Assembly: GCA_035758845.1 (NCBI GenBank) | Contig: DASTVZ010000224.1 | Span: 151-64,150, forward strand | Length of the DNA stretch: 64,000 nt | Direction of reading: 5' to 3' | From: Vicinamibacterales bacterium | GTDB lineage: Bacteria; Acidobacteriota; Vicinamibacteria; Vicinamibacterales; 2-12-FULL-66-21 | Shown here: piece by piece, positions 3,022 to 60,609 of the stretch | Layout: each line of letters opens with the position of its first letter | Position numbering within the stretch: the first letter of the stretch is position 1 | The notes under the pieces: generated by a model | Database searches by the model: none | The model's input: the letters and a program-made list of their open reading frames with translations, nothing else | What the model was told of the DNA's origin: nothing | Made by a program: the position numbers and the translations under genes

Positions 3022-4174
3022 GCGCCTGGTCGAGATCTGCGATCAGATCTTCGGCATCCTCTAATCCGACCGACAAGCGCGCCATGCTGTGGGTGACGCC
3101 GGCGCGTTCGAGCTCCTCTTCAGTGTGGCCCCACTGCGAGGTCAAGACCGGCAGGCTGCACAGGCTTTCCACTCCGCCGAGGCTGGCGGCGCGCTTGAAC
3201 ACTTTCAGTCGATCGAAGAATCGCGCGGCGCGATCGTAACCGCCGCCGACGTCAACGCAGACCATTCCACCGAATCCGCGCATCTGCTTCGCCGCGATTG
3301 CGTGATCGGGATGCCGCTCGAGACCGGGATAGTACACCGTCTTCACGCGACGATCGGTCGACAGCCATCGCGCCACTGCCATCGCGTTCGCGTTATGGCG
3401 CTCCATGCGAACCGCCAGCGTCTTGAGGCCGCGTCCCAGCGCATAGGCGGCGTAGGGATCCAGGATCGTCCCCAGTTTCTTGCGCGCGTCGAGAATAGGC
3501 TCCATTAGCCGCGTCGGACCCGCCAGCGCGCCCGCCGTGACGTCGCTGTGGCCGTTGAGATACTTCGTCGCGCTGTGCATCACGAGATCGATGCCGAGCG
3601 CGATCGGCTGCTGATTGATCGGGCTGGCAAACGTATTATCCACCGCCGAGATCACGCCCCGTGCTTTGCATGCACTGGCCACAGCCGCGATGTCGACGCA
3701 TCGCAGCGTCGGGTTGATCGGGGACTCGAACCACACCACCTTCGTGTTCGCCGAGAAGATCGTTTCGGCGCGGGCGAGTTCTTCAAGCGAAACGAAGCGA
3801 GGTTTGATACCGAACTTCGGCAGTAAATCCGCCAGCAGATGGAGCGTCCCGCCGTAAATCGCGGAACTGCACACGACTTCGTCACCCGACGCCGTCAGCG
3901 CCATCAGAGCTGTCGTCGTCGCCGCTTGTCCACTCGACAAGACGAGCGCAGTCTCGGCGCCTTCAAGCGTCGCGATCTTCTGCTCGATCGGGGTTACCGT
4001 CGGATTCGCGTAGCGCGAATATAAGTACTTCGACGAACGCCCCTCGTTATACGCGACCACCTCGGCCGCGTCCTGAAACAGGAACGTTGTCGTTTCATAA
4101 ATCGGCGTCGTCAGCGGCGCCGCATCGCGACTCGCACCGTCGGAATGGTGAATCAATTCAGTTGCCGGTTTCAT
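3014..4174 (-). CDS. PLP-dependent Cys/Met metabolism enzyme (cystathionine gamma-synthase / methionine gamma-lyase family)
   Basis: ORF 3014..4237. SATKYLNGHSD PLP-lysine motif and PIYETTTFLF. Start set to ATG 4174 (MKPATELIHH) because the upstream codons only translate a heptad repeat. Confidence 0.85.
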   Translation of the reverse strand: MKPATELIHHSDGASRDAAPLTTPIYETTTFLFQDAAEVVAYNEGRSSKYLYSRYANPTVTPIEQKIATLEGAETALVLSSGQAATTTALMALTASGDEVVCSSAIYGGTLHLLADLLPKFGIKPRFVSLEELARAETIFSANTKVVWFESPINPTLRCVDIAAVASACKARGVISAVDNTFASPINQQPIALGIDLVMHSATKYLNGHSDVTAGALAGPTRLMEPILDARKKLGTILDPYAAYALGRGLKTLAVRMERHNANAMAVARWLSTDRRVKTVYYPGLERHPDHAIAAKQMRGFGGMVCVDVGGGYDRAARFFDRLKVFKRAASLGGVESLCSLPVLTSQWGHTEEELERAGVTHSMARLSVGLEDAEDLIADLDQALT

Positions 4175-4189
4175 AGGTGTCTCACTGAA

Positions 4190-4267
4190 ATTGTTGATTG
4201 CTGATTTCTGATGGCTGATTGGTTTCTCGCTCTTCAATCAGCGATCAGCAATCGAAAATCAGCAATT
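4190..4267. repeat. inverted heptad array: about 4 GCTGATT-type units, a 13-nt loop, then about 4 AATCAGC-type units
   Basis: Read directly: attgttgattgctgatttctgatggctgattgg / tttctcgctcttc / aatcagcgatcagcaatcgaaaatcagcaatt. It fills the spacer between the patatin-like stop (4274) and the PLP-enzyme start (4174). Confidence 0.85.
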
Positions 4268-4273
4268 CCATTG

Positions 4274-5734
4274 TCACGCTTTCCCTCTCTTCCCCGCGGC
4301 GCCATTCCCCTGATGGACTTCCATCCGCTCGCCGCCGGCGCCAACGATCGGCTCGATGAACTGCCGATACGCGTCCTCATATCCGCGATCGACGAGTTCC
4401 GAGAGCGCCTGGGTGCGATCCGACCGCTCGTCATAAACACCGGCGAAATCCAGCGGACCGAGCGGATTGTGGACAGGCCGAATCACGAACATTCCGGCAA
4501 ACCGGCCATCGAAATGTTCCAGGGCATCGCGCAGGCTCGCCGCCTCGAACGAGGCGAGATATTCGCCGGCCCGGCCGCGAATCTCCTCGCGACCCGTGCC
4601 GAGTTGATGAGCAATGGCTTCGGGCGATGATGCACTGACGACGATCACTTGTTCTGCGCCGGCCGTCGCCACTTCACGAAGCAGCCTTGCCAGAGCCGCA
4701 GGACGATCGCAGAGTCGATGTGTCTCGCCGCGCCAGGGTCCCTCGGGCGGGAACGCCGTCAGGTGAGGCGTCGTCGCGACCGGCAACGCGAGCGCGGCGG
4801 CCAGTGCGTCGAACGCATAATCGCGCGAGATTCCCGACAGGTCGAACGCCTCCAGGTATCGCGACGCACTCTCTGGTGCTCCCGGCCGCCCGAAAAAGCG
4901 CGAACGATGGGCGTGGCCCAGGAGCGCAAAGACCACGTCGCGCCGCGCATCGATGTCGTGAACCGCGACCAGCAATTCTCTGAAACCAGGCTGTCCAAGA
5001 TTGTCGGTGAGCAGTTCGACATACCGCCGCGCGAGATCGTTCGCCTCCGGCCGCGCGAGCGGCGCCGCTCCGCGGATCAGATTCCACAGTTCGGTCAACG
5101 ACCCGGTCAAGAGAGTCGAGGATGTGAGTGGTGATCCAAGCAAGCGCCAGAGAATTGATTGCCTCGCCCGCCGGCGCAGATGGGCACCGATCGTGGACCA
5201 GCCGAGATTGATCGCCAGCGCCGCGACGCCGACCACGAGGACGAACAGCACCAGCCTGGGGATCGTGGTTGGAAGCGCCGTCGGCGCAAAAAGCGCGTCG
5301 ATCCATCCGCTGAACGTCGAGCGGAGCGTCGCCGCCGGAGCGTCGAGACCGACAAGCGTCAGGAGGAGTCCGGCGAGCCCGACGAGGACGGCGATCCCCA
5401 GCAGCGTCATCGGCACAGCAAACACCACCGCGGCGGCGGCGAGCGTCCACCCTGCGATACGAAGCGGCAGTCGCCATCGATAGAACTGCGTCGCCGCCGT
5501 TGAGCGCCACAGGCCGTTGGCTTCCCAGAGCCGAACACCGCCGTCGACGGCAGTGAAGACGGCACTGATGGCGCCGACCCCACGGCCGGCGACCAGGTCG
5601 ATTTTGACGCCAGCTTCGTGGAGGGCCCGAAGCACGCCGGCATGATACGCGCCCGCCGTGCCTGATCCGGTCAGCACGAGCGCGGTTCTCAGTCGCGTCG
5701 AATACTGCCGGTCCGGGGCCTCGGGTGTAATCAC
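4274..5734 (-). CDS. patatin-like phospholipase family protein with an internal transmembrane insertion and a degenerate nucleophile motif
   Basis: LVLTGSGTAGAYHAGVLRAL matches the oxyanion-hole region. GRGVG sits where GxSxG is expected. Two hydrophobic stretches lie around aa 95-190. GTG start at 5734. Confidence 0.7.
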   Translation of the reverse strand: MITPEAPDRQYSTRLRTALVLTGSGTAGAYHAGVLRALHEAGVKIDLVAGRGVGAISAVFTAVDGGVRLWEANGLWRSTAATQFYRWRLPLRIAGWTLAAAAVVFAVPMTLLGIAVLVGLAGLLLTLVGLDAPAATLRSTFSGWIDALFAPTALPTTIPRLVLFVLVVGVAALAINLGWSTIGAHLRRRARQSILWRLLGSPLTSSTLLTGSLTELWNLIRGAAPLARPEANDLARRYVELLTDNLGQPGFRELLVAVHDIDARRDVVFALLGHAHRSRFFGRPGAPESASRYLEAFDLSGISRDYAFDALAAALALPVATTPHLTAFPPEGPWRGETHRLCDRPAALARLLREVATAGAEQVIVVSASSPEAIAHQLGTGREEIRGRAGEYLASFEAASLRDALEHFDGRFAGMFVIRPVHNPLGPLDFAGVYDERSDRTQALSELVDRGYEDAYRQFIEPIVGAGGERMEVHQGNGAAGKRGKA

Positions 5735-5747
5735 AACCGGTGTGTGC

Positions 5748-6215
5748 TCAGGCTTCGTCGTGAATGGTAATGAGCTTCACGAGCTCGAATCGACGCATCC
5801 CGTTCGGCGTCGCGATCGTGACCTCGTCCCCCTCCTCTTTGTTGAGGAGGCCGCGCCCGATCGGCGACGCGGTCGAAATCAATCCTTGTTCGACGTCGGC
5901 GTCTTCCGGCATGACCAGTTGATAGACCGTCGTCTGGCCGTTGGGATCCTTCAGATGAACCGTCGATCCGAATCCGACTTTATCGTGCGGGATCTTGTCG
6001 AGGTTCATCAACGAGATTTCGCTGACTCGCTTCTGGAGCATGCTGATGCGCGATTCGACCAGCCGCTGCCGCTCTTTGGCCGCCTGGTACTCGGCGTTCT
6101 CCCGCAGATCGCCCAACTCACGCGCCCGCTTGATTTCCTTTGGCAGCTCCGTTTTCAGCTCACGATCGAGCGCCTGGATCTCATCTTCGAATTTCTTGAG
6201 GAGACGATCCTTCAT
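5748..6215 (-). CDS. greA: transcription elongation factor GreA
   Basis: 155 aa with LRENAEYQAAKERQ and a GreA C-terminal domain pattern. Confidence 0.95.
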   Translation of the reverse strand: MKDRLLKKFEDEIQALDRELKTELPKEIKRARELGDLRENAEYQAAKERQRLVESRISMLQKRVSEISLMNLDKIPHDKVGFGSTVHLKDPNGQTTVYQLVMPEDADVEQGLISTASPIGRGLLNKEEGDEVTIATPNGMRRFELVKLITIHDEA

Positions 6216-12921: not shown

Positions 12922-13574
12922 GTCATCAGATGCCGATCGTAGCCCGCACGAACGAGCTCGTCATACGCATCCCACACCTCGTCGGGAATATCTTGCGGGA
13001 TTTGAAACCCTCGCGCCGGGTATTCGCGAATGCGCTGGAGATCGCCGACCATGATGCTGATCACATCGTCGACAGTGAGCGACTGGTGGGAATAGCGGGC
13101 GAAGTAATCGTCCATCGATAACTGCGGTGAGGTGACGCGGACGGACTTGCCGGGCCACACCTTCTGAAATGTCGCGAACGTCCGACGTTCCATGTACGGC
13201 TTCTGCACCAAGATGAAGGTCCCGGGGTCGAGCCCGCGTGACGCGAGAAGGTCGCGGGTGAATACAACGTTCTCTCCCGTATTGGTCGCGCGGTTTTCGA
13301 TGAGGATGCGATCGGCAGGCACTCCCATCCCCACCGCAATGCGCGCAAACCGTTCCGCCTCGGGATCGCTCCATAGGTGCCGGGTGATCGCACCGAGGCC
13401 GCCGGTGAACACGAGAAGCGGCGCCCACCCATCCAGGAACAGCCGCGCACCCCGCTCGGCGACGATCGTGTCGTGACTGCAGAGGACGACAATCACGTCG
13501 GATTTCTGCAGCTCATGGTTCATATGGTGGTAGCGCCAGACGCGTTCCACCAGTGGTCGCACTCGGTCGTCCAT
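12915..13574 (-). CDS. YdcF/ElyC (DUF218) family protein
   Basis: VIVVLCSHD ... LLVFTGGLG ... IENRATNTGENV pattern. Confidence 0.8.
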   Translation of the reverse strand: MDDRVRPLVERVWRYHHMNHELQKSDVIVVLCSHDTIVAERGARLFLDGWAPLLVFTGGLGAITRHLWSDPEAERFARIAVGMGVPADRILIENRATNTGENVVFTRDLLASRGLDPGTFILVQKPYMERRTFATFQKVWPGKSVRVTSPQLSMDDYFARYSHQSLTVDDVISIMVGDLQRIREYPARGFQIPQDIPDEVWDAYDELVRAGYDRHLMTP

Positions 13575-13673
13575 CTCGCTCTCGAGTTACGTGGTTCCTT
13601 GACAGCCCACTCGGCAACGGTGAAAAATTCCAGTGTTTTGCGCTTTTTCCATATTCACAAAACAGGTCACACC

Positions 13674-14510
13674 ATGCGAACGATATTTTCTCTCACACTG
13701 GTTCTCGCCACAGCCACGTCGCTGACCTTGCCCGCACACGCTCAACAGGCGCCCGCTGCGCCGGCGGCTCAGACACCTCCCGCCGGGGCCAGCCAGACAC
13801 CGCCGCGGGGAAACCCCAAGGACACAGAAGTCTGGGAACCGGTGCCTGCGGTCGTGACGCCGGGTCAGGCCAATAGCGATCCGCCGTCGGACGCGATCAT
13901 CTTGTTCGACGGCAAGAATCTGGATCAATGGGTCTCGGTGAAAGACAAGTCGCCGGCGGGATGGAAGGTTGCCGATGGCGTGATGACGGTCGTGAAGTCC
14001 GCCGGCAATATCGAGACGAAGCGCAGCTTCAAAAGCTATCAACTGCACCTCGAATGGCGCATCCCGACCGAGATTACTGGTTCCGATCAGGCGCGCGGCA
14101 ATAGCGGACTATTTCTTGCCTCGACGGGCGCCGGCGATGGTGGATACGAGCTGCAGATTCTCGATTCGTATAACAACAAGACCTACGTCAATGGCCAGGC
14201 GGGCAGCATCTACAAGCAGGCCATCCCGCTCGCCAACGCAATGCGCAAGCCCGGCGAGTGGCAAACGTATGACGTTCTCTGGACGGCCCCCACGTTCAAT
14301 GCCGACGGAACGGTAAAGACGCCGGCCTACGTCACCGCATTTCACAACGGTGTACTGATCCAGAATCACTTCGAGTTGAAAGGCGAGACGCTGTATATCG
14401 GCAAACCGGAATATAAGAAGTACGACACGGCGCCGATCAAGCTGCAGGCCCACGGCGATCCAAGCCCGCCGATCAGCTTCCGGAATATCTGGCTCAGAGA
14501 ATTGAAATAA
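13674..14510 (+). CDS. secreted DUF1080 (3-keto-disaccharide hydrolase-like) protein
   Basis: ORF 13377..14510. Start at ATG 13674 (MRTIFSLTLVLATATSLTLPAHA). DGKNLDQWVS, NSGLFL, YELQILDSYNN and ISFRNIWLREL. Confidence 0.85.
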   Translation: MRTIFSLTLVLATATSLTLPAHAQQAPAAPAAQTPPAGASQTPPRGNPKDTEVWEPVPAVVTPGQANSDPPSDAIILFDGKNLDQWVSVKDKSPAGWKVADGVMTVVKSAGNIETKRSFKSYQLHLEWRIPTEITGSDQARGNSGLFLASTGAGDGGYELQILDSYNNKTYVNGQAGSIYKQAIPLANAMRKPGEWQTYDVLWTAPTFNADGTVKTPAYVTAFHNGVLIQNHFELKGETLYIGKPEYKKYDTAPIKLQAHGDPSPPISFRNIWLRELK

Positions 14511-14540
14511 GAAATGCTGAATGCTGAATGCTGAATGAAA
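14511..14540. repeat. tandem GCTGAAT heptads (3 perfect copies)
   Basis: gaaatgctgaatgctgaatgctgaatgaaa starts 1 nt after the DUF1080 stop. Confidence 0.85.
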
Positions 14541-14558
14541 CGCGGCGGGCTCATTCGT

Positions 14559-14638
14559 GGTTCTGCAGGGTTCTGACGCGTTCTCGAGCGAACCTCGTAG
14601 AACCCGGTAGAACCTTGCAGAACCTCGCAGAACCCGGA
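14559..14638. repeat. eight exactly 10-nt-phased units: 3 x GGTTCTNNNN facing 5 x AGAACCNNNN around a CTCGAG centre
   Basis: ggttctgcag ggttctgacg cgttctcgag cgaacctcgt agaacccggt agaaccttgc agaacctcgc agaacccgga. It abuts the ferritin stop at 14639. Confidence 0.9.
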
Positions 14639-15133
14639 CTACCCCGCTTTCTCGATGTGAATAAGGTAGGCCTCGACCATGATCAGATTGCGCTCCCCTG
14701 ACTGGCGAATGATGCTGAGGAGGTTGTCCATCTTGACCACTTCCTCCAGCTGCTCGTCGATGAACCACTGGAGGAAATTGCTGGCGAGGTAATCGGTCTC
14801 TTTGACCGCGAGATCCATCAGGCTGGTGATCTGGCGCGTGACTTCCTGCTCCCATTTCAGCGCCGCTTCAACCGCTGCTTCGGCCGACGCAAAGGTCGGC
14901 ACCGGCGCGGCAATCGAGGGGATGCGCAGATCCCCTTTGGTGTCGAGCACGTATTTCACGAACTTCATCGCGTGCTCTTTTTCCTCTTCGGCTTGATCGA
15001 AAAACAGCTTGGCTAGCAGCTTCAGCTGGCGCTGCTGGAAGTGTCCGGCGATGCTGAGATACTGCATGCTCGCGCCGAACTCGTGGCCGATCTGCTCGTT
15101 GAACGCTTTCGCGAGACTTGAACTAATCAACAA
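14639..15133 (-). CDS. ferritin
   Basis: LAKAFNEQIGHEFGASMQYLSIA and EEEKEHAMKF. TTG 15133 is preceded by GGAGGAGGAG. The alternative ATG start is at 15157. Confidence 0.85.
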   Translation of the reverse strand: MLISSSLAKAFNEQIGHEFGASMQYLSIAGHFQQRQLKLLAKLFFDQAEEEKEHAMKFVKYVLDTKGDLRIPSIAAPVPTFASAEAAVEAALKWEQEVTRQITSLMDLAVKETDYLASNFLQWFIDEQLEEVVKMDNLLSIIRQSGERNLIMVEAYLIHIEKAG

Positions 15134-34185: not shown

Positions 34186-35976
34186 TCAGATTCGCTGAAA
34201 GTTCTTCTCAATCTCCCGTCGCGTGATCCGCAATACGACAGGACGTCCGTGCGGACAGACGCTTGAATACGCCGTGCGACGCAGCTCCTCAAGGATGTAA
34301 CGCATCTTCTCCATCGTCAGCGGATAATTCGCCTTGACGGCAGCATGACACGCCATGGTTGCTGCGATCCGGCGCAGCGCTTCCTCGACGCGAGATCCGC
34401 GGTCGAGCCCCTCGAGATCGCTGGCCAACGCGCGGATGGCGGCCTCGCATTCACCCGGATCGAGCGCGGCGGGAAGCGCGGAGAGACGAACGCTGTCGCC
34501 GCCGAACTCCTCGATCTCGACGCCGAACTTCTCGAGCGTCGCCGCATGTGGAAGGAGCGCCTGCCGCTCAGCGGGTGAGAGCTCGATGAGAACAGGCGTC
34601 AACAGGCGCTGGCTTTCGAGCTGGCCGGACGTCAACCTCTCCATCACCTGTTCGAACAGCACGCGTTCGTGCGCCACATGTTGATCGACAATTGCAATCC
34701 CTTCATCGTCAATCGCGATGATGAACGTGTCGCGAAACTGGCCCAGGGGGATCATTGGGCGGAGGTCACCCGGTTCTACTGGGTTCTGCGTGGTCCTACC
34801 GGGTTCAGCAGGGTTCGACAGGGCGCTGCCGACAGCGTTCTCAGTTGCTGGCTCCATAAGATTGCGCCATGGCCCGAGCGGTTCGGGCGCCCACCGGTTT
34901 CCAACCGTCGCGCCGGCAAGGACACCAGGAATCGCCATCGGACGCGGCTCCAGCTGGCGCGGCGAGAACGGCGTGAATTGCAACTCAGGGGCGCGGCCTT
35001 GCCCGAGCGCTTCCGCGAGCGCGCGGCGAAGCACTTCGTGCACGAGTGACTGCTCGAGAAACCGCACTTCCGCCTTGGTCGGGTGAACGTTGACGTCGAC
35101 GCGATCGGCGGGCATGCGGATGAAGAGATGCACTTCGGGACTGCGTTCTTTGATCGTCGCCACGCTATACGCTTCCGAAATCGCGTGCGCGATCGTGCGG
35201 TCCTTGACGATGCGGCGGTTGACGAATACGTTTTGCGCGCCGCGCACCGGCCCCTGATCGCCGAGCGCCGCGACGTACCCGTGAATCTGCAGCCCGGCGG
35301 CCTCTTTGCGGACTTCGATCAAGTCGAGGCGCTCGCCAAACAGCTGATAGAAGCGGTCGCCCAGACCGTTGGCTGGCGGGCACTCGAGCAGCTTTCGTCC
35401 GCCGCTGGTGAGCGAGAAGCCAACCTCGGGATACCCGAGGGCCATCTGCGTCACGAGGCGGGAGATCTGCGCGGATTCGGCGCTATCCGACTTCAGGAAC
35501 TTGCGCCGCGCCGGCAGGTTGTAGAACAGATCCGCGACCTCGATCGAGGTGCCTTCGGGGACGCCGACTTCGCGCTGCGAGGCAACCGTGCCGCCATTGA
35601 CGCGTATCTCGGTGCCTGACGCGCTGCCGCGCGCGCGTGTGCGCAACTGGAAATGCGACACCGACGCGATACTCGGCAGGGCTTCGCCTCTGAATCCCAA
35701 CGTGAGAATGGCGCCGAGATCTTCCGGCGTCGCAATTTTGCTCGTCGCGTGACGCTCGATCGCGAGCCGCGCGTCCTCCGGATCCATCCCCTCTCCATCG
35801 TCCTCGACGCGAAGCAGCTTCTTGCCGCCGAGCTCGATGGTGATCACGATGCGCGTCGCCTGCGCATCGAGCGAGTTCTCGATCAGTTCCTTGACCACCG
35901 AAGCCGGACGCTCGACGACTTCGCCGGCGGCGATTTGATTGGCGAGGCGGAGGGGAAGACGATGAATGCGAGGCAT
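34186..35976 (-). CDS. mutL: DNA mismatch repair protein MutL
   Basis: IAAGEVVERPASVVKELIENSLDA ATPase motif and a C-terminal endonuclease/dimerisation region. Confidence 0.95.
   Translation of the reverse strand: MPRIHRLPLRLANQIAAGEVVERPASVVKELIENSLDAQATRIVITIELGGKKLLRVEDDGEGMDPEDARLAIERHATSKIATPEDLGAILTLGFRGEALPSIASVSHFQLRTRARGSASGTEIRVNGGTVASQREVGVPEGTSIEVADLFYNLPARRKFLKSDSAESAQISRLVTQMALGYPEVGFSLTSGGRKLLECPPANGLGDRFYQLFGERLDLIEVRKEAAGLQIHGYVAALGDQGPVRGAQNVFVNRRIVKDRTIAHAISEAYSVATIKERSPEVHLFIRMPADRVDVNVHPTKAEVRFLEQSLVHEVLRRALAEALGQGRAPELQFTPFSPRQLEPRPMAIPGVLAGATVGNRWAPEPLGPWRNLMEPATENAVGSALSNPAEPGRTTQNPVEPGDLRPMIPLGQFRDTFIIAIDDEGIAIVDQHVAHERVLFEQVMERLTSGQLESQRLLTPVLIELSPAERQALLPHAATLEKFGVEIEEFGGDSVRLSALPAALDPGECEAAIRALASDLEGLDRGSRVEEALRRIAATMACHAAVKANYPLTMEKMRYILEELRRTAYSSVCPHGRPVVLRITRREIEKNFQRI
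34771..34830. repeat. five to six GGTTCTNNNN decamer units inside the mutL CDS
   Basis: cggttctact gggttctgcg tggtcctacc gggttcagca gggttcgaca gggcgctgcc. Same unit, phase and orientation as the left arm at 14559. Confidence 0.8.
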
Positions 35977-35978
35977 CT

Positions 35979-36183
35979 CGATTGCCGATTGTTGATTGGT
36001 GAATGCCGATTTGTCGATTGCTGATTGTCAATTGGTCATTGACGATCGCTGACTGGCGATTGGTGATTGGCGATTGGTGATTGCCGACGGGTGTTCGAGT
36101 ATGACCAGGAGGTAAACACAATCGTCACTCCACAATCGTCAATCCAAACTCCGCAATCTACAATCCGCAATCCGCAATCGTCA
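35979..36183. repeat. large inverted heptad array: about 16 GATTGNN units, a 28-nt loop, then about 9.5 CAATCNN units
   Basis: Left arm 35979-36088, loop 36089-36116, right arm 36117-36183. It occupies the whole corA-mutL spacer and touches both the corA stop and the mutL ATG. Confidence 0.9.
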
Positions 36184-37146
36184 TATCCAGCCTTTCTTCC
36201 GAAAGAACCCGAGCATCGCCGCCGACAGGGCGAGCATGATGCCGCAGACCCACCAGAACTGCGCGTGTTCGCCGCCGGGCAAATGCGGCAACGGCACGTT
36301 CATGCCGTACATGCCGGTCAGGACGGTCAGCGGCATGAACAGCGTTGCGATGATCGTGAGCACCTTCATCACCTGATTGAGCTGGTTCGATACCGCAGAC
36401 AGGTGGGCGTCGAGGATACTCGTGATGCGATCCTGAAAAAACATCGCCTCGTCCGACAGCCTCACCAGGTGGTCATGCACATCGCGAAAACCGTACGCGA
36501 GCTGTTCGGTGATCAACGGGAATTCGCGGCGCGCCAGCCGGCCGACGACGTCGCGTTGCGGCAGCACGGTTTGGCGCAACGACGAAATGTCTTTCTTGAA
36601 ATTCAGAATCCGGCGTGCCAGCTGCGTGTTCGGGTGCTCGAACACTTCCTTTTCGAGTTTGTCGAGCTTCTCAGACAACTTGTCGACTTCGGGCCGGTAG
36701 TTGTCCACCATCGTGTCGACGATCCGGTAGAGCAACATGCCGGGCCCTTCGCCAAGCATGCGGGAGTCACGGCTGCACACCACGCCCACTTTGCCGATTG
36801 ACCGTGAGACACCGGGATGCACGGTCACCAGGAATTGTGAACCGAGAAAAAAATCGACGTCCTTGGTGGTGAAGCGATGTTCGGACGCATGAAAATCGAT
36901 TCCGTGCAGAATTACGTACAGGTAGTCGCCGTAGGACTCGATTTTCGGGTGATGCAGCTCGCTGAGAGCGTCTTCAATCGCAAGCTGATGAAAATGAAAG
37001 GTGTCGCTGAGGACTTTTGTTTCGTCAGGAGTCGGTCGATCGAGATCGACCCAGACACATATGCCGCTGCCAGGCTTGATCCAGGCGGGGTCCACGCGAT
37101 CGACGAGCTGAGTGGACCCGCCCTCGTGCTTGTAGATCCTGATCAA
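36181..37146 (-). CDS. corA: magnesium/cobalt transporter CorA
   Basis: YGMNV (GMN) motif plus two C-terminal TM helices. TTG 37146 overlaps the ppdK stop (TTGA). Confidence 0.85.
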
Positions 37147-42184: not shown

Positions 42185-42264
42185 TCCAAATCAACAATCC
42201 ACAATCACAATCGCCCAATCGACATTCAAAAAAATCAGCAATCAGCAATCCGCAATCAACAATT

Positions 42265-52247: not shown

Positions 52248-52771
52248 GATCGCTCGATCAATCCCGCACGAAGGCCGCCGCGGCGGCGGAGTCGTGTTTC
52301 GACGCGGCGCATGCGCCCGGCGTCCTCCTGATTGTGGTGATCGTACCCGAGCAGGTGCAGCAAGCCATGAAGCGCAAGCACGCGCAACTCGGCCTGGTAC
52401 GAGTGGCCGGCGTCCCTCGCCTGCTTCCTGGCAGTGCCGGTGGCAATGACGATATCGCCAAGGAAACCTGTCGGGATCCGTTGTCCGGGATCCGGGATCC
52501 GGGATCCGGGATCAACCGGAAACGATAAGACGTCGGTCGGCCGATTTTTCCGGCGGTACTGTGAATTGAGTGTCTGGCTGTGGGCATCGGTGACGAGCGC
52601 GATCGCTACCTCGCCGCGTGCGACAGATGGCGCGATCGAGGCGAGCCACTGCGAGAGCCCGCCGTCGCGGACCGATCGTCCGCGACCGTCAGTCACGCTG
52701 ACATGCAAGCGTCGACCGCGCCGGTTCTCGGCGCCACCCGGCTGGCGCCGGACTTTACTGTCGGGATCCAC
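52244..52771 (-). CDS. ybeY: rRNA maturation endoribonuclease YbeY
   Basis: [11 protein letters not shown] zinc motif and DVLSFP. GTG 52771 is the first start after the phoH region and overlaps phoH by 17 nt. Confidence 0.85.
52471..52512. repeat. CCGGGAT heptads inside the ybeY CDS: 4 perfect tandem copies (52485-52512) plus 2 degenerate units
   Basis: tcgggatccgttgtccgggatccgggatccgggatccgggat. Contains four GGATCC cores. 42 nt equals 14 codons. Confidence 0.9.
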
Positions 52772-57610: not shown

Positions 57611-57660
57611 CGCGATTCGCGCGTTAGCGATTCGCGCGTTAGCGATTCGCGCGAATCGCG
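57611..57660. repeat. 15-nt unit cgattcgcgcgttag x2 running into an 18-bp perfect palindrome gcgattcgcgcgaatcgc
   Basis: Units at 57613-57627 and 57628-57642. Palindrome at 57642-57659. Confidence 0.85.
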
Positions 57661-59450: not shown

Positions 59451-60473
59451 ATGCCGCTTCTCGATCGTTTTAGCCGTCCGTTGCGGAGCCTCCGCATTTC
59501 GGTGACCGATCGCTGTAACCTGCGATGTCAGTACTGCATGCCGGAGCCGGACTATCTCTGGCTGCCCCGCGAAAGCCTGCTGACATTCGAAGAAACTGCC
59601 GCGATCGTTGACGCGTTCACGCCGCTTGGCGTCGATCGGGTGCGGATCACTGGCGGCGAACCGCTTCTCCGCCGCGATCTGCCGGTGCTTATCGAGTCAT
59701 TGGCGGCGAAGCCGGCAATCGCTGATCTTGCGATGACCACCAACGGGGTTCTGCTCGCGGCGAATGCATCGCGACTGCGCACCGCCGGACTGCACCGAGT
59801 GACCGTCAGTCTTGACACGCTCGACCGCGAGCGCTTCCGCGCGCTGACGCGGATGGATGATTTGCACGAGGTGCTCGACGGCATCGCTGCTGCCGCGGCC
59901 GCGGGATTTACGTCGCTCAAGCTCGACACCGTGGTGATCCGCGGCGTCAATGACGATGAACTGGTGGCGCTCGTCGAATATGCGAAGAGTGTGAATTCCG
60001 AACTCCGATTCATCGAGTACATGGATGTTGGCGGGGCAACGCGCTGGACACCTTCTGCGGTTGTGTCGAGGCGCGAGATCCTCGATCGATTGCGCGCACA
60101 CTACGGGGGTGTCATGCCGATTGCGGAACAGTCGTCAGCCCCCGCGGATCGATTCCTGCTGCCTGACGGGACGACGTTCGGAATCATTTCGTCGACGACC
60201 GAGCCGTTCTGTGCATCGTGCGATCGTAGCCGCCTCACCGCGGACGGTGTCTGGCTTCTTTGCCTCTATGCAGCCACCGGCACGGACCTTCGTCGCCCGC
60301 TACGCGCAGGGGCTAGCCGCGAGGATCTTCAGCGGTTGATCGAAGCTGTATGGTCGGTTCGTGCCGACCGCGGTGCCGAAGAGCGTCTCGGGATGGATCG
60401 CGAAACGACGCTTATCCCCGTCCGGACGCTTAAGAAAGACGCTCACCTCGAAATGCATACCCGCGGCGGCTGA
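59451..60473 (+). CDS. moaA: GTP 3',8-cyclase MoaA (radical SAM)
   Basis: Start ATG 59451 (MPLLDRFSRP). CNLRCQYC radical-SAM cluster and C-terminal CASCDRSRLTADG. Confidence 0.9.
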   Translation: MPLLDRFSRPLRSLRISVTDRCNLRCQYCMPEPDYLWLPRESLLTFEETAAIVDAFTPLGVDRVRITGGEPLLRRDLPVLIESLAAKPAIADLAMTTNGVLLAANASRLRTAGLHRVTVSLDTLDRERFRALTRMDDLHEVLDGIAAAAAAGFTSLKLDTVVIRGVNDDELVALVEYAKSVNSELRFIEYMDVGGATRWTPSAVVSRREILDRLRAHYGGVMPIAEQSSAPADRFLLPDGTTFGIISSTTEPFCASCDRSRLTADGVWLLCLYAATGTDLRRPLRAGASREDLQRLIEAVWSVRADRGAEERLGMDRETTLIPVRTLKKDAHLEMHTRGG

Positions 60474-60609
60474 TTGCGGATTGCGGAGTGGCGATTGCCG
60501 ATTTCTTGATTGGCGATTGCGGATTGAGATTGCCCATCTCAATCGACAATCTCAATCGACAATCGACAATCTGAAAATCCGCAATCTACAGTCCGAAATC
60601 GGCAATCAG
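60471..60609. repeat. inverted heptad array: about 8.5 GATTGCN units, a 5-nt loop, then about 10.5 CAATCNN units
   Basis: The array starts with the moaA TGA (tgattgcggattgcgg...). Its centre is a perfect 9-bp stem, gattgagat-tgccc-atctcaatc (60522-60544). It ends 2 nt before the sigma ORF. Confidence 0.9.

What the first reader, a model, noticed from the sequence alone, without database searches (positions are those of the whole stretch)
14511..14638. Convergent-gene spacer built from (GCTGAAT)x3 plus eight exactly 10-nt-phased units around a CTCGAG centre
The 128-bp spacer lies between the DUF1080 gene stop (14510) and the ferritin stop (14639). It holds three perfect GCTGAAT heptads, a small hairpin gaatga-N12-tcattc, and then exactly eight decamers: 3 x GGTTCTNNNN followed by 5 x AGAACCNNNN. 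The cores pair while the 4-nt variable parts mostly do not, which gives a ladder-like stem. The strict 10-nt period matches one DNA helical turn, so phased bending is an alternative to an RNA hairpin role. The symmetric position suits a bidirectional terminator.
Basis: partly seen in the sequence, partly recalled or inferred. Interest (0 to 1): 0.62.

Follow-up and report, generated by a model that had tools for sequence, protein, structure and literature searches.

The report
Two repeat hairpins fused by deletion
The odd spacer is real, but it is two separate fast-evolving repeat hairpins, one belonging to each flanking gene, that came to lie side by side when this soil acidobacterium lost a 2.2-kb two-gene cassette; the 10-base part is the stem of what is the ferritin gene's transcription terminator in related bacteria.

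Summary
Window 14511-14638 holds (GCTGAAT)x3, a GAATGA-N12-TCATTC mini-hairpin and eight exactly phased decamers around CTCGAG. This is far beyond chance.

The spacer is not one designed unit. In 17 related loci, one of them 95-97% identical in DNA, the layout is ferritin, then a GGTTCTRCNR foldback, a T-run, the blaI promoter, blaI, a blaR1-like gene, a second short hairpin spacer, then the convergent DUF1080 gene. The window lacks the roughly 2.25-kb blaI/blaR1 segment. The ferritin-side decamer hairpin and the DUF1080-side heptad module now touch.

The decamer unit belongs to a dispersed family. It was found in 49 of 63 Acidobacteriota loci, 0 of 57 other bacterial loci and 0 of 50 viral loci. 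Its arms always run GGTTCT then AGAACC, and it usually starts 0-20 nt after a stop codon.

At the ferritin locus, unit number ranges from 0 to 9 per arm among relatives. Unit length is 7-10 nt in the closest relative. A wedge model predicts no curvature. Helical phasing is therefore incidental.

The most likely role is a terminator or 3'-end-protecting hairpin for both transcripts. The window's copy has lost its T-run, and function is untested. I class it as a new variant of known short-unit repeat hairpins, of moderate interest.

The parts
13377..14510 (+). 3-keto-disaccharide hydrolase (DUF1080) gene. This is the longest ORF. Relatives of 277-280 aa suggest a later start, near 13670.
   Evidence: Pfam PF06439, 3.9e-43. 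The segment 14510->13855 is 96.8% identical to L183.
14513..14537 (+). Heptad array (GCTGAAT), 3.6 copies. It is the module on the DUF1080 side.
   Evidence: TRF 100% match. The same unit forms a foldback at the orthologous DUF1080 3' spacer of L121, and a GCTGATT variant does so in L125. A second copy of the unit lies at window 6242.
14533..14556 (.). Mini-hairpin GAATGA-N12-TCATTC. It is the centre of the heptad foldback, with only one unit left in the arm facing the lost cassette.
   Evidence: Sequence. Inverted repeat I5.
14559..14588 (+). Decamer arm of GGTTCT type as read on the + strand: 3 units, the third degenerate. In ferritin sense this is the distal arm. The top-strand unit type flips from GGTTCT to AGAACC at 14588/14589, just 3' of the CTCGAG; the axis of the minimum-energy hairpin lies further 3', at about 14590-14591.
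   Evidence: I1: 29-nt arms, 83% complementary.
14589..14638 (+). Decamer arm of AGAACC type as read on the + strand: 5 units. In ferritin sense these are five canonical GGTTCTRCNR units, starting 3 nt after the ferritin stop.
   Evidence: It is orthologous to the arrays after the ferritin stop in 15 of 17 relatives.
14639..15133 (-). Ferritin / bacterioferritin-like gene, about 164 aa.
   Evidence: Pfam PF00210, 1.5e-32. Homologues are 163-174 aa. Codon-model gene call.
34768..34823 (+). Second copy of the decamer family in the window. It is a single arm of 5 degenerate units inside the MutL interdomain linker.
   Evidence: The ORF 34186-35976(-) has HATPase_c_3, DNA_mis_repair and MutL_C domains, and the array falls between residues 324 and 411.

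Best explanation
The 128-bp spacer is a deletion scar that joins two independent short-unit repeat hairpins.

(1) Positions 14559-14638 are the ferritin gene's own 3' hairpin. It is built from tandem GGTTCTRCNR decamers in two inverted arms. This unit family is dispersed through Vicinamibacterales-like Acidobacteriota. Its arrays grow and shrink quickly, presumably by slipped-strand mispairing. In relatives this hairpin begins 3-17 nt after the ferritin stop. It is followed at once by a T-run and then by the -35 box of the blaI promoter. There it has the anatomy of an intrinsic terminator that insulates ferritin from the blaI/blaR1-like operon.

(2) Positions 14511-14558 are the remnant of a GCTGAAT heptad foldback on the DUF1080 side.

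(3) The window's lineage lost the roughly 2.25-kb segment between them: the T-run, the promoter, blaI and the blaR1-like gene. Both foldbacks are shortened on the arm that faced the cassette.

What remains folds into a hairpin of about -56 kcal/mol in either transcript. It most likely still acts as a transcription barrier and a block to 3' exonucleases for both convergent genes, but without a U-tract.

Shown: the anatomy, family membership, orthology, the missing cassette and the fast turnover.
Inferred: terminator or stabiliser activity, slippage as the mechanism of change, and a deletion rather than repeated insertions.
For: - Family. A scan of one genome per species for AGAACCN4AGAACCN4AGAACC returned 120 loci, 63 of them from Acidobacteriota/Vicinamibacterales MAGs. 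The stricter signature (GYAGAACCYN)x3 occurs in 49 of 63 Acidobacteriota loci, 0 of 57 others and 0 of 50 viral loci. The unit logo is GGTTCTRCNR. All 23 loci with both arms have the GGTTCT arm 5' of the AGAACC arm.
- Gene context. Of 72 elements, 40 lie between tandem genes, 17 between convergent genes, 8 between divergent genes and 6 overlap a predicted CDS. Most lie 0-20 nt from a stop codon. The gene caller reproduced the strands and stop positions of almost all database gene calls on 4 loci.
- Orthology. In 17 ferritin->blaI spacers, 15 carry family units (0-9 per arm). The first core lies 3-17 nt after the stop. The 12 nt after the last core hold 4-9 T and are followed by TTGACA. Spacer folding energy ranges from -3.6 to -110 kcal/mol. 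Single-unit forms look like textbook terminators, for example L188 with a 14-bp stem followed by TTTTTTT, and L190.
- Deletion. Window 17932->14628 matches L127 103-3006 and window 14510->14193 matches L127 5178-5495, so 2.17 kb is absent. L183 is 95-97% identical in the flanks and has 2,254 bp where the window has 48 bp. An independent soil-metagenome contig (run X5) joins 14510 to 14622 with 2,262 letters in between. The missing genes are Penicillinase_R and Peptidase_M56+TonB_C.
- Folding.
- RNA. One 154-nt metatranscriptome contig (X13, depth 5.8) matches exactly 14492-14639. It spans the whole hairpin region and stops right after it.
Against: - The window's copy has no T/U-run after the hairpin on either strand, and the consensus terminator scan does not flag it.
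- Across 22 family elements between tandem genes there is no general T-run (mean 3.95 T in 15 nt). The sense RNA does not fold better than the antisense RNA: 15 of 22 fold better as antisense, p=0.2, with 95 G-U pairs in sense against 140 in antisense. There is therefore no signature of RNA-level selection.
- Permuting the order of arm units does not weaken the ferritin-locus hairpins L121, L126 and L128. The arms pair only through the unit consensus.
- Two relatives carry no family unit at all (L184, L192) and two carry a single unit with no opposing arm (L127, L130), so none of the four has a family foldback. A large array is therefore dispensable.
- The RNA evidence is a single short contig in a library where this organism is sparse, and DNA carry-over cannot be excluded.
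- The closest relative, L183, has GC-rich hairpins rather than heptads next to DUF1080. The heptad module's ancestry rests on the more distant L121 and L125.
Confidence: 0.65

Rival explanations
1. The arrays are selfish or neutral repeats with no role. They are slippage-prone or mobile DNA that accumulates wherever it is tolerated, mainly just past stop codons. At this locus they do nothing for ferritin or DUF1080. In relatives the T-run would belong to the blaI promoter region, not to a terminator.
For: Unit number ranges from 0 to 9 per arm among orthologues, and some relatives lack the array. There is no sense-strand folding bias and no general T-run. Arm order can be permuted freely. Arrays fill spacers up to the gene boundaries. 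One copy sits inside the MutL linker. One MAG, Bin.028, holds many stereotyped 180-390-bp copies, which suggests copy-and-paste spread.
Against: In 15 of 15 orthologues that carry units, the last unit is followed directly by a T-rich tail. Minimal single-unit forms are canonical hairpin-plus-T-run terminators. Placement is biased 17 convergent to 8 divergent. An 8-of-10 conserved core shared across many species is hard to keep by drift alone.
Confidence: 0.3
2. The element is a REP/REPIN- or MITE-like mobile element moved by a dedicated enzyme, such as a RAYT-type tyrosine transposase. On this reading the spacer copy is an insertion and not a home-grown terminator stem.
For: Each unit contains GYAG, as the tag of GTAG REPs does (PMC3733652). 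The family is dispersed, lineage-specific and high in copy number. The arm polarity is invariant. Copies in Bin.028 are stereotyped, and many elements have GATC at their ends. REPs are likewise found after genes and inside repair genes (PMC3733652).
Against: The GYAG lies inside the paired stem and is repeated in every unit, so it is not a single unpaired tag. The arms are tandem arrays of up to about 100 nt, not 20-40-bp palindromes. No target-site duplication was seen. The ten genes that border or are bracketed by arrays were all ordinary or unassigned, with no transposase among them, and a separate DUF5615 gene lies between two arms. The array is positionally orthologous across relatives with 85-99% ferritin identity. 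That fits long residence with local turnover better than repeated insertion.
Confidence: 0.15
3. The array is a phased DNA-level signal. Eight cores spaced one helical turn apart would bend the DNA or line up sites for a DNA-binding protein, as the first reader suggested as an alternative.
For: The window's copy has an exact 10-nt period. The 8-nt core is more conserved than a hairpin needs.
Against: The closest relative (95-97% identical in DNA) has 7-, 8-, 9- and 10-nt units at the same site. Across the family about 38% of core spacings are not 10 nt. Sister arrays in the same window have 7-nt periods and the same inverted-arm architecture. There is no A-tract. The wedge model gives an end-to-end/contour ratio of 0.984, equal to shuffles, against 0.61 for an A-tract control, and 27% of window frames are more curved (model parameters recalled from memory).
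Confidence: 0.05

Closest known systems
Heptameric simple-sequence repeats of Xanthomonas (GGGAATC) and Nostoc (GGGGAYT), Rehm et al. 2015, PMC4692102; more broadly the 'long SSRs' with 5-11-nt units
   Same: These are short-unit tandem arrays spread over the genome and over-represented between genes. Most lie within 0-50 bp of a stop codon and are under-represented between divergent genes. Unit number is variable, and they are transcribed. This matches the context counts here.
   Different: Those repeats are G-rich and were proposed to form G-quadruplexes, with a preference for four units. Here the unit is a 10-mer (GGTTCTRCNR) with no G-tracts. It is arranged as two inverted arms that form a long duplex hairpin, with invariant arm polarity.
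REP / BIME / REPIN elements (GTAG-tagged palindromes, RAYT-associated), Di Nocera et al. 2013, PMC3733652
   Same: Both are dispersed, lineage-specific, hairpin-forming repeats located mostly downstream of genes. Both are sometimes found inside repair genes. Both have been proposed as terminators or mRNA stabilisers. A GYAG motif is present in both.
   Different: REPs are single 20-40-bp palindromes with an unpaired terminal GTAG, and they are associated with RAYT genes. Here the arms are tandem arrays, GYAG is internal and paired, and no transposase association was found in the small sample tested.
Rho-independent (intrinsic) terminators
   Same: In relatives the element is a GC-containing stem-loop directly after the stop codon and directly followed by a T-run.
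   Different: The stems are modular and reach about 9 units per arm (-110 kcal/mol), far longer than typical terminators. The window's copy has lost the T-run.
Eukaryotic foldback elements (Drosophila FB), cited from general knowledge
   Same: Both have long inverted arms that are themselves made of short tandem repeats.
   Different: FB elements are transposons with kilobase-scale arms. There is no evidence of transposition here.

Membership tests
Vicinamibacterales GGTTCTRCNR decamer foldback family (defined here) | Tandem units matching GGTTCTRCNR | tested here: met
   In ferritin sense the window units are GGTTCTGCGA, GGTTCTGCAA, GGTTCTACCG, GGTTCTACGA and GGTTCGCTCG. The logo comes from 580 units.
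Vicinamibacterales GGTTCTRCNR decamer foldback family (defined here) | GGTTCT arm lies 5' of the AGAACC arm, in an intergenic spacer next to a stop codon | tested here: met
   The array starts 3 nt after the ferritin stop.
Vicinamibacterales GGTTCTRCNR decamer foldback family (defined here) | Many copies in the window's own genome | not testable with these tools
The window itself holds two copies.
Intrinsic terminator | Stable stem-loop in the transcript just past the stop codon | tested here: met
Intrinsic terminator | U-rich tract immediately 3' of the stem | tested here: not met
   The window has 2-3 T in the 15 nt after the stem on either strand, and the consensus scan finds nothing there. 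The feature is met in 15 of 15 unit-bearing orthologues.
Intrinsic terminator | Transcript 3' ends map to the base of the hairpin | tested here: inconclusive
   One metatranscriptome contig ends at 14639, right after the hairpin, but contigs carry no true end information.
REP/REPIN (GTAG type) | Single short (20-40 bp) imperfect palindrome with an unpaired terminal GTAG | tested here: not met
   The arms are tandem arrays, and GYAG is inside every paired unit. Definition from PMC3733652.
REP/REPIN (GTAG type) | Cognate RAYT (Y1 transposase) gene flanked by the repeats | tested here: inconclusive
   No transposase was found among 10 array-adjacent genes in relatives. A whole-genome search was not possible.
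Short-unit SSR arrays (Rehm 2015 type / long SSRs) | Tandem units of 5-11 nt, with unit number varying between relatives | tested here: met
   0-9 units per arm at the orthologous site. Arrays are identical among strains that are about 99.9% identical.
Short-unit SSR arrays (Rehm 2015 type / long SSRs) | G-tracts able to form G-quadruplexes | tested here: not met
   The unit GGTTCTRCNR has no run of 3 or more G as a rule.
Intrinsically curved / phased-bend DNA | Helically phased bending elements and predicted curvature | tested here: not met
   (wedge model). The period is not conserved.
MITE | Terminal inverted repeats with target-site duplications, and empty sites in relatives | tested here: inconclusive
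   No direct repeats were evident at the element ends. GATC is often at both ends. Orthologous sites are occupied in most relatives.

The most novel reading that the evidence does not exclude
The GGTTCTRCNR arrays are not mere slippage products. They would be a lineage-specific, sequence-recognised module: an 'expandable terminator stem'. Its 8-nt core would be kept constant across species because a dedicated protein reads it. That protein could be a hairpin-binding transposase-like enzyme or an RNA- or DNA-binding factor. Unit number would tune read-through into the downstream operon, here ferritin into blaI/blaR1. The invariant arm polarity and the GATC-marked ends would be footprints of the process that generates the arrays.
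Probability: 0.12. Interest if true: 0.7.

Novelty: new variant of a known kind. Interest (0 to 1): 0.4.

Why it matters
The result turns an apparently designed spacer into a datable evolutionary event: loss of a cassette between strains that are 95-97% identical. It also gives the clearest positional evidence so far for what one abundant and apparently undescribed acidobacterial repeat family does. At a conserved locus the family forms the stem of a hairpin-plus-T-run terminator, and the stem length changes by whole units between close relatives. Vicinamibacterales are abundant in soil and barely studied genetically. Knowing that their intergenic regions are filled by modular repeat hairpins matters for annotating operon boundaries, for assembling MAGs, and for understanding how terminators originate and turn over.

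Tried and rejected
- Rfam scan of 14300-14900. Only sub-threshold miRNA-precursor look-alikes appeared (25 bits against gathering scores of 78-80). They are hairpin artefacts.
- Sense versus antisense folding and G-U counts in 22 elements of known transcription direction. No sense bias, so no RNA-level selection signal.
- Permuting unit order within an arm. Ferritin-locus arrays are no more stable than the permuted versions. Only the composite Bin.028 elements are true mirror palindromes.
- DNA curvature by a wedge model: none (parameters from memory, checked with an A-tract control).
- Viral contig scan: only background single hits and no family signature.
- Exact search for the window's heptad/decamer junction in JGI metagenome contigs: no hit. 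The allele was seen only in DNA runs X1 and X2 and RNA run X13.
- Look for transposases next to or between arrays: none in 10 genes.
- RNA-seq. Only one metatranscriptome holds the spacer, as assembled contigs, so no read ends are available.
- Literature. No paper describes this decamer.
Copy number in the own genome and any transposase association could therefore not be measured.

Full report
**1. Observation**

The spacer 14511-14638 reads GAAAT(GCTGAAT)x3, then GAAACGCGGCGGGCTCATTCGTG, then eight decamers: GGTTCTGCAG, GGTTCTGACG, CGTTCTCGAG, CGAACCTCGT, AGAACCCGGT, AGAACCTTGC, AGAACCTCGC, AGAACCCGGA. The cores lie at exact 10-nt steps and CTCGAG is at 14583-14588.

The pattern is far beyond chance. 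There are 7 three-unit matches against 0.01 expected, and 2 heptad triples against 0 expected.

The flanks are a 3-keto-disaccharide hydrolase (DUF1080) gene ending at 14510 and a ferritin gene whose stop is at 14639. Homologues of about 164 aa place the ferritin gene at 14639-15133.

Both strands fold strongly: -55.7 kcal/mol (z -5.3) and -58.1 kcal/mol (z -5.8). The fold contains a continuous 16-bp helix, so the 'variable' tetranucleotides mostly pair. It is not a ladder.

**2. The decamers belong to a dispersed, lineage-specific family**

I scanned one genome per prokaryote species for three AGAACC cores at 10-nt spacing.

In those loci the arrays have the consensus GGTTCTRCNR. T6 is 89% conserved, R7 95%, C8 93% and R10 93%, and only position 9 is free (n=580).

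The stricter signature (GYAGAACCYN)x3 is present in 49 of 63 Acidobacteriota loci, 0 of 57 others and 0 of 50 viral loci.

In every locus with both arms (23 of 23), the GGTTCT arm precedes the AGAACC arm.

One MAG (Bin.028) carries more than 15 stereotyped 180-390-bp foldbacks. Their outer arms have five units and end in GGTTCGGTT / CCGAACC. GATC is common at the ends of elements.

I built a codon-model gene caller. It reproduced the strands and stop positions of almost all database gene calls on four loci; it missed one end-truncated gene. With it, 72 elements fall as follows: 40 between tandem genes, 17 between convergent genes, 8 between divergent genes and 6 overlapping a predicted CDS. 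Most lie 0-20 nt from a stop codon.

**3. The orthologous locus explains the composite**

Ferritin homologues with 85-99% identity were traced to their contigs. In 17 loci the order is ferritin, then a decamer foldback, a T-run, TTGACA, a conserved palindromic operator-like sequence, and blaI (Penicillinase_R). Wherever the contig extends far enough, a blaR1-like gene (Peptidase_M56+TonB_C) follows, and then, in the eight loci that reach it, a short hairpin spacer and the convergent DUF1080 gene.

Fifteen of the 17 carry family units, with 0-9 per arm. The first core lies 3-17 nt after the stop. The 12 nt after the last core hold 4-9 T in every case. Spacer folding energy runs from -3.6 to -110 kcal/mol.

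The minimal forms are textbook intrinsic terminators. L188 has TCAGGTTCTGCCGG-GTTCA-CCGGTAGAACCTGA followed by TTTTTTT. L190 has a 9-bp stem followed by TTTT.

The DUF1080-side spacer in L121 is a GCTGAAT/GCTGAAG heptad foldback. In L125 it is a GCTGATT foldback.

**4. The window lacks the cassette**

Window 17932->14628 is collinear with L127 103-3006. Window 14510->14193 is collinear with L127 5178-5495.

L183 is 95-97% identical in DNA on both flanks. It has 2,254 bp (3583-5836) where the window has only 48 bp, at 14511-14558.

Independently, a 2,819-nt contig from soil metagenome run X5 joins 14510 to 14622 with 2,262 letters in between.

All relatives carry the cassette, including those with different upstream neighbours. 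A recent deletion in the window's lineage is therefore the parsimonious reading.

Both foldbacks are short on the arm that faced the cassette. The decamer foldback has 5 units against 3. The heptad foldback has 3.6 units against 1. That is what deletion endpoints inside the two inner arms would leave.

One caveat applies. L183 has two GC-rich hairpins next to DUF1080, not heptads. The heptad module's ancestry therefore rests on L121 and L125, and turnover there is also fast.

**5. Tempo**

Arrays are identical among contigs about 99.9% identical that come from different samples.

They are already very different at 95-97% identity. L183 reads GGTTCTGCG GGTTCTAG GGTTCTC GGTTCTAG GGTTCTACGA GGTTCC / GAACCTCGAA..., with units of 7-10 nt.

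Strict 10-nt phasing is thus not conserved even at this locus. Across the family about 38% of core spacings are not 10 nt.

**6. Function**

Evidence for a terminator or 3'-protection role:
- the hairpin-plus-T-run anatomy in all unit-bearing orthologues;
- the placement bias towards 3' ends;
- a 154-nt metatranscriptome contig (X13, depth 5.8) that matches exactly 14492-14639, covering the hairpins and stopping just past them.

That organism is sparse in the library, with about ten read-length pieces in 19 kb. Contigs carry no true ends, so this evidence is only suggestive.

Evidence against:
- the window's copy has lost the T-run and is not flagged by a consensus terminator scan;
- family elements between tandem genes show no general T-run and no better folding of the sense RNA (15 of 22 fold better as antisense, p=0.2; 95 G-U pairs against 140);
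- permuting unit order does not weaken the ferritin-locus hairpins;
- four relatives have no family foldback at all: L184 and L192 carry no unit, L127 and L130 a single unit.

I therefore rate 'works as a hairpin barrier or stabiliser' as likely but unproven. The rival 'tolerated selfish or neutral repeat' stays substantial.

**7. DNA bending**

A wedge-model path calculation gives an end-to-end/contour ratio of 0.984 for the 80-bp array. That equals its shuffles (0.984), and 27% of window frames are more curved. An A-tract control gives 0.61. The parameters were recalled from memory.

There is also no A-tract, the period is not conserved, and 7-nt sister arrays share the same architecture. 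This reading is rejected.

**8. Comparison with known systems**

The closest described classes are the following.
- Heptameric SSRs of Xanthomonas and Nostoc. They lie within 50 bp of stop codons, are depleted between divergent genes, vary in unit number and are transcribed (PMC4692102).
- GTAG-type REPs (PMC3733652).

The decamer family differs from the first class in unit, in lacking G-tracts and in its obligatory inverted-arm hairpin. It differs from the second in having tandem-array arms, an internal paired GYAG and no transposase association in the small sample tested.

No paper describing the decamer was found.

Earlier notes from this scan had independently flagged the same family and the MutL copy. 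I re-derived both.

**9. Limits**

Own-genome copy number and a RAYT search were not possible.

**10. Verdict**

The structure is real and ordinary in principle. It is a new variant of short-unit repeat hairpins, and here it forms a deletion scar that fuses the 3' modules of two genes. Interest is moderate.

Noticed in passing
L121 3190-3222, L127 3030-3056, L183 3600-3640 (and all ferritin->blaI relatives): A conserved TTGACA is followed by the palindrome-containing stretch GTACTAGATAACTAGTAG directly in front of blaI. It looks like the BlaI operator overlapping its own promoter. It is nearly invariant across relatives whose neighbouring arrays differ completely.
   Followed up: no
L183 5750-5836: In the closest relative the spacer next to the DUF1080 stop holds two GC-rich REP-like hairpins (GGGCGGGGTCTTTAGACCCCGCC and GGCGCGGTCTGAAGACCGCGCC), not heptads. 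Run X6 shows the same sequence after 14510.
   Followed up: partly
L108 6189-6888: Two five-unit decamer arms in inverted orientation bracket a 140-aa DUF5615 gene (toxin-antitoxin-associated fold). It is an example of arms about 600 bp apart with a gene between them.
   Followed up: partly
window 34768-34823: A single-arm decamer array (5 degenerate units) lies inside the MutL linker, between the DNA_mis_repair and MutL_C domains.
   Followed up: partly
window 4190-4266, 35979-36189, 42185-42263, 60472-60607: Long inverted pairs of GATTGNN / CAATCNN heptad arrays fill other intergenic spacers of the window. They have the same foldback architecture with a 7-nt period.
   Followed up: no
window 52472-52513 and 57612-57653: There is a (CGGGATC)x6 heptad run and a perfect 15-nt x 2.8 tandem repeat (GCGATTCGCGCGTTA). 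Neither was examined.
   Followed up: no
L028 3445-6632: Decamer arrays lie on both sides of an 812-aa MacB_PCD/FtsX-type permease gene, next to a divergent PadR regulator gene.
   Followed up: no
L037 6675-6744, L062 1014-1117, L072 4256-4305: A sub-family of the decamer has the tail GAAA (GGTTCTGAAA / GGTTCGGAAA), not RCNR. It occurs in other Acidobacteriota MAGs.
   Followed up: no
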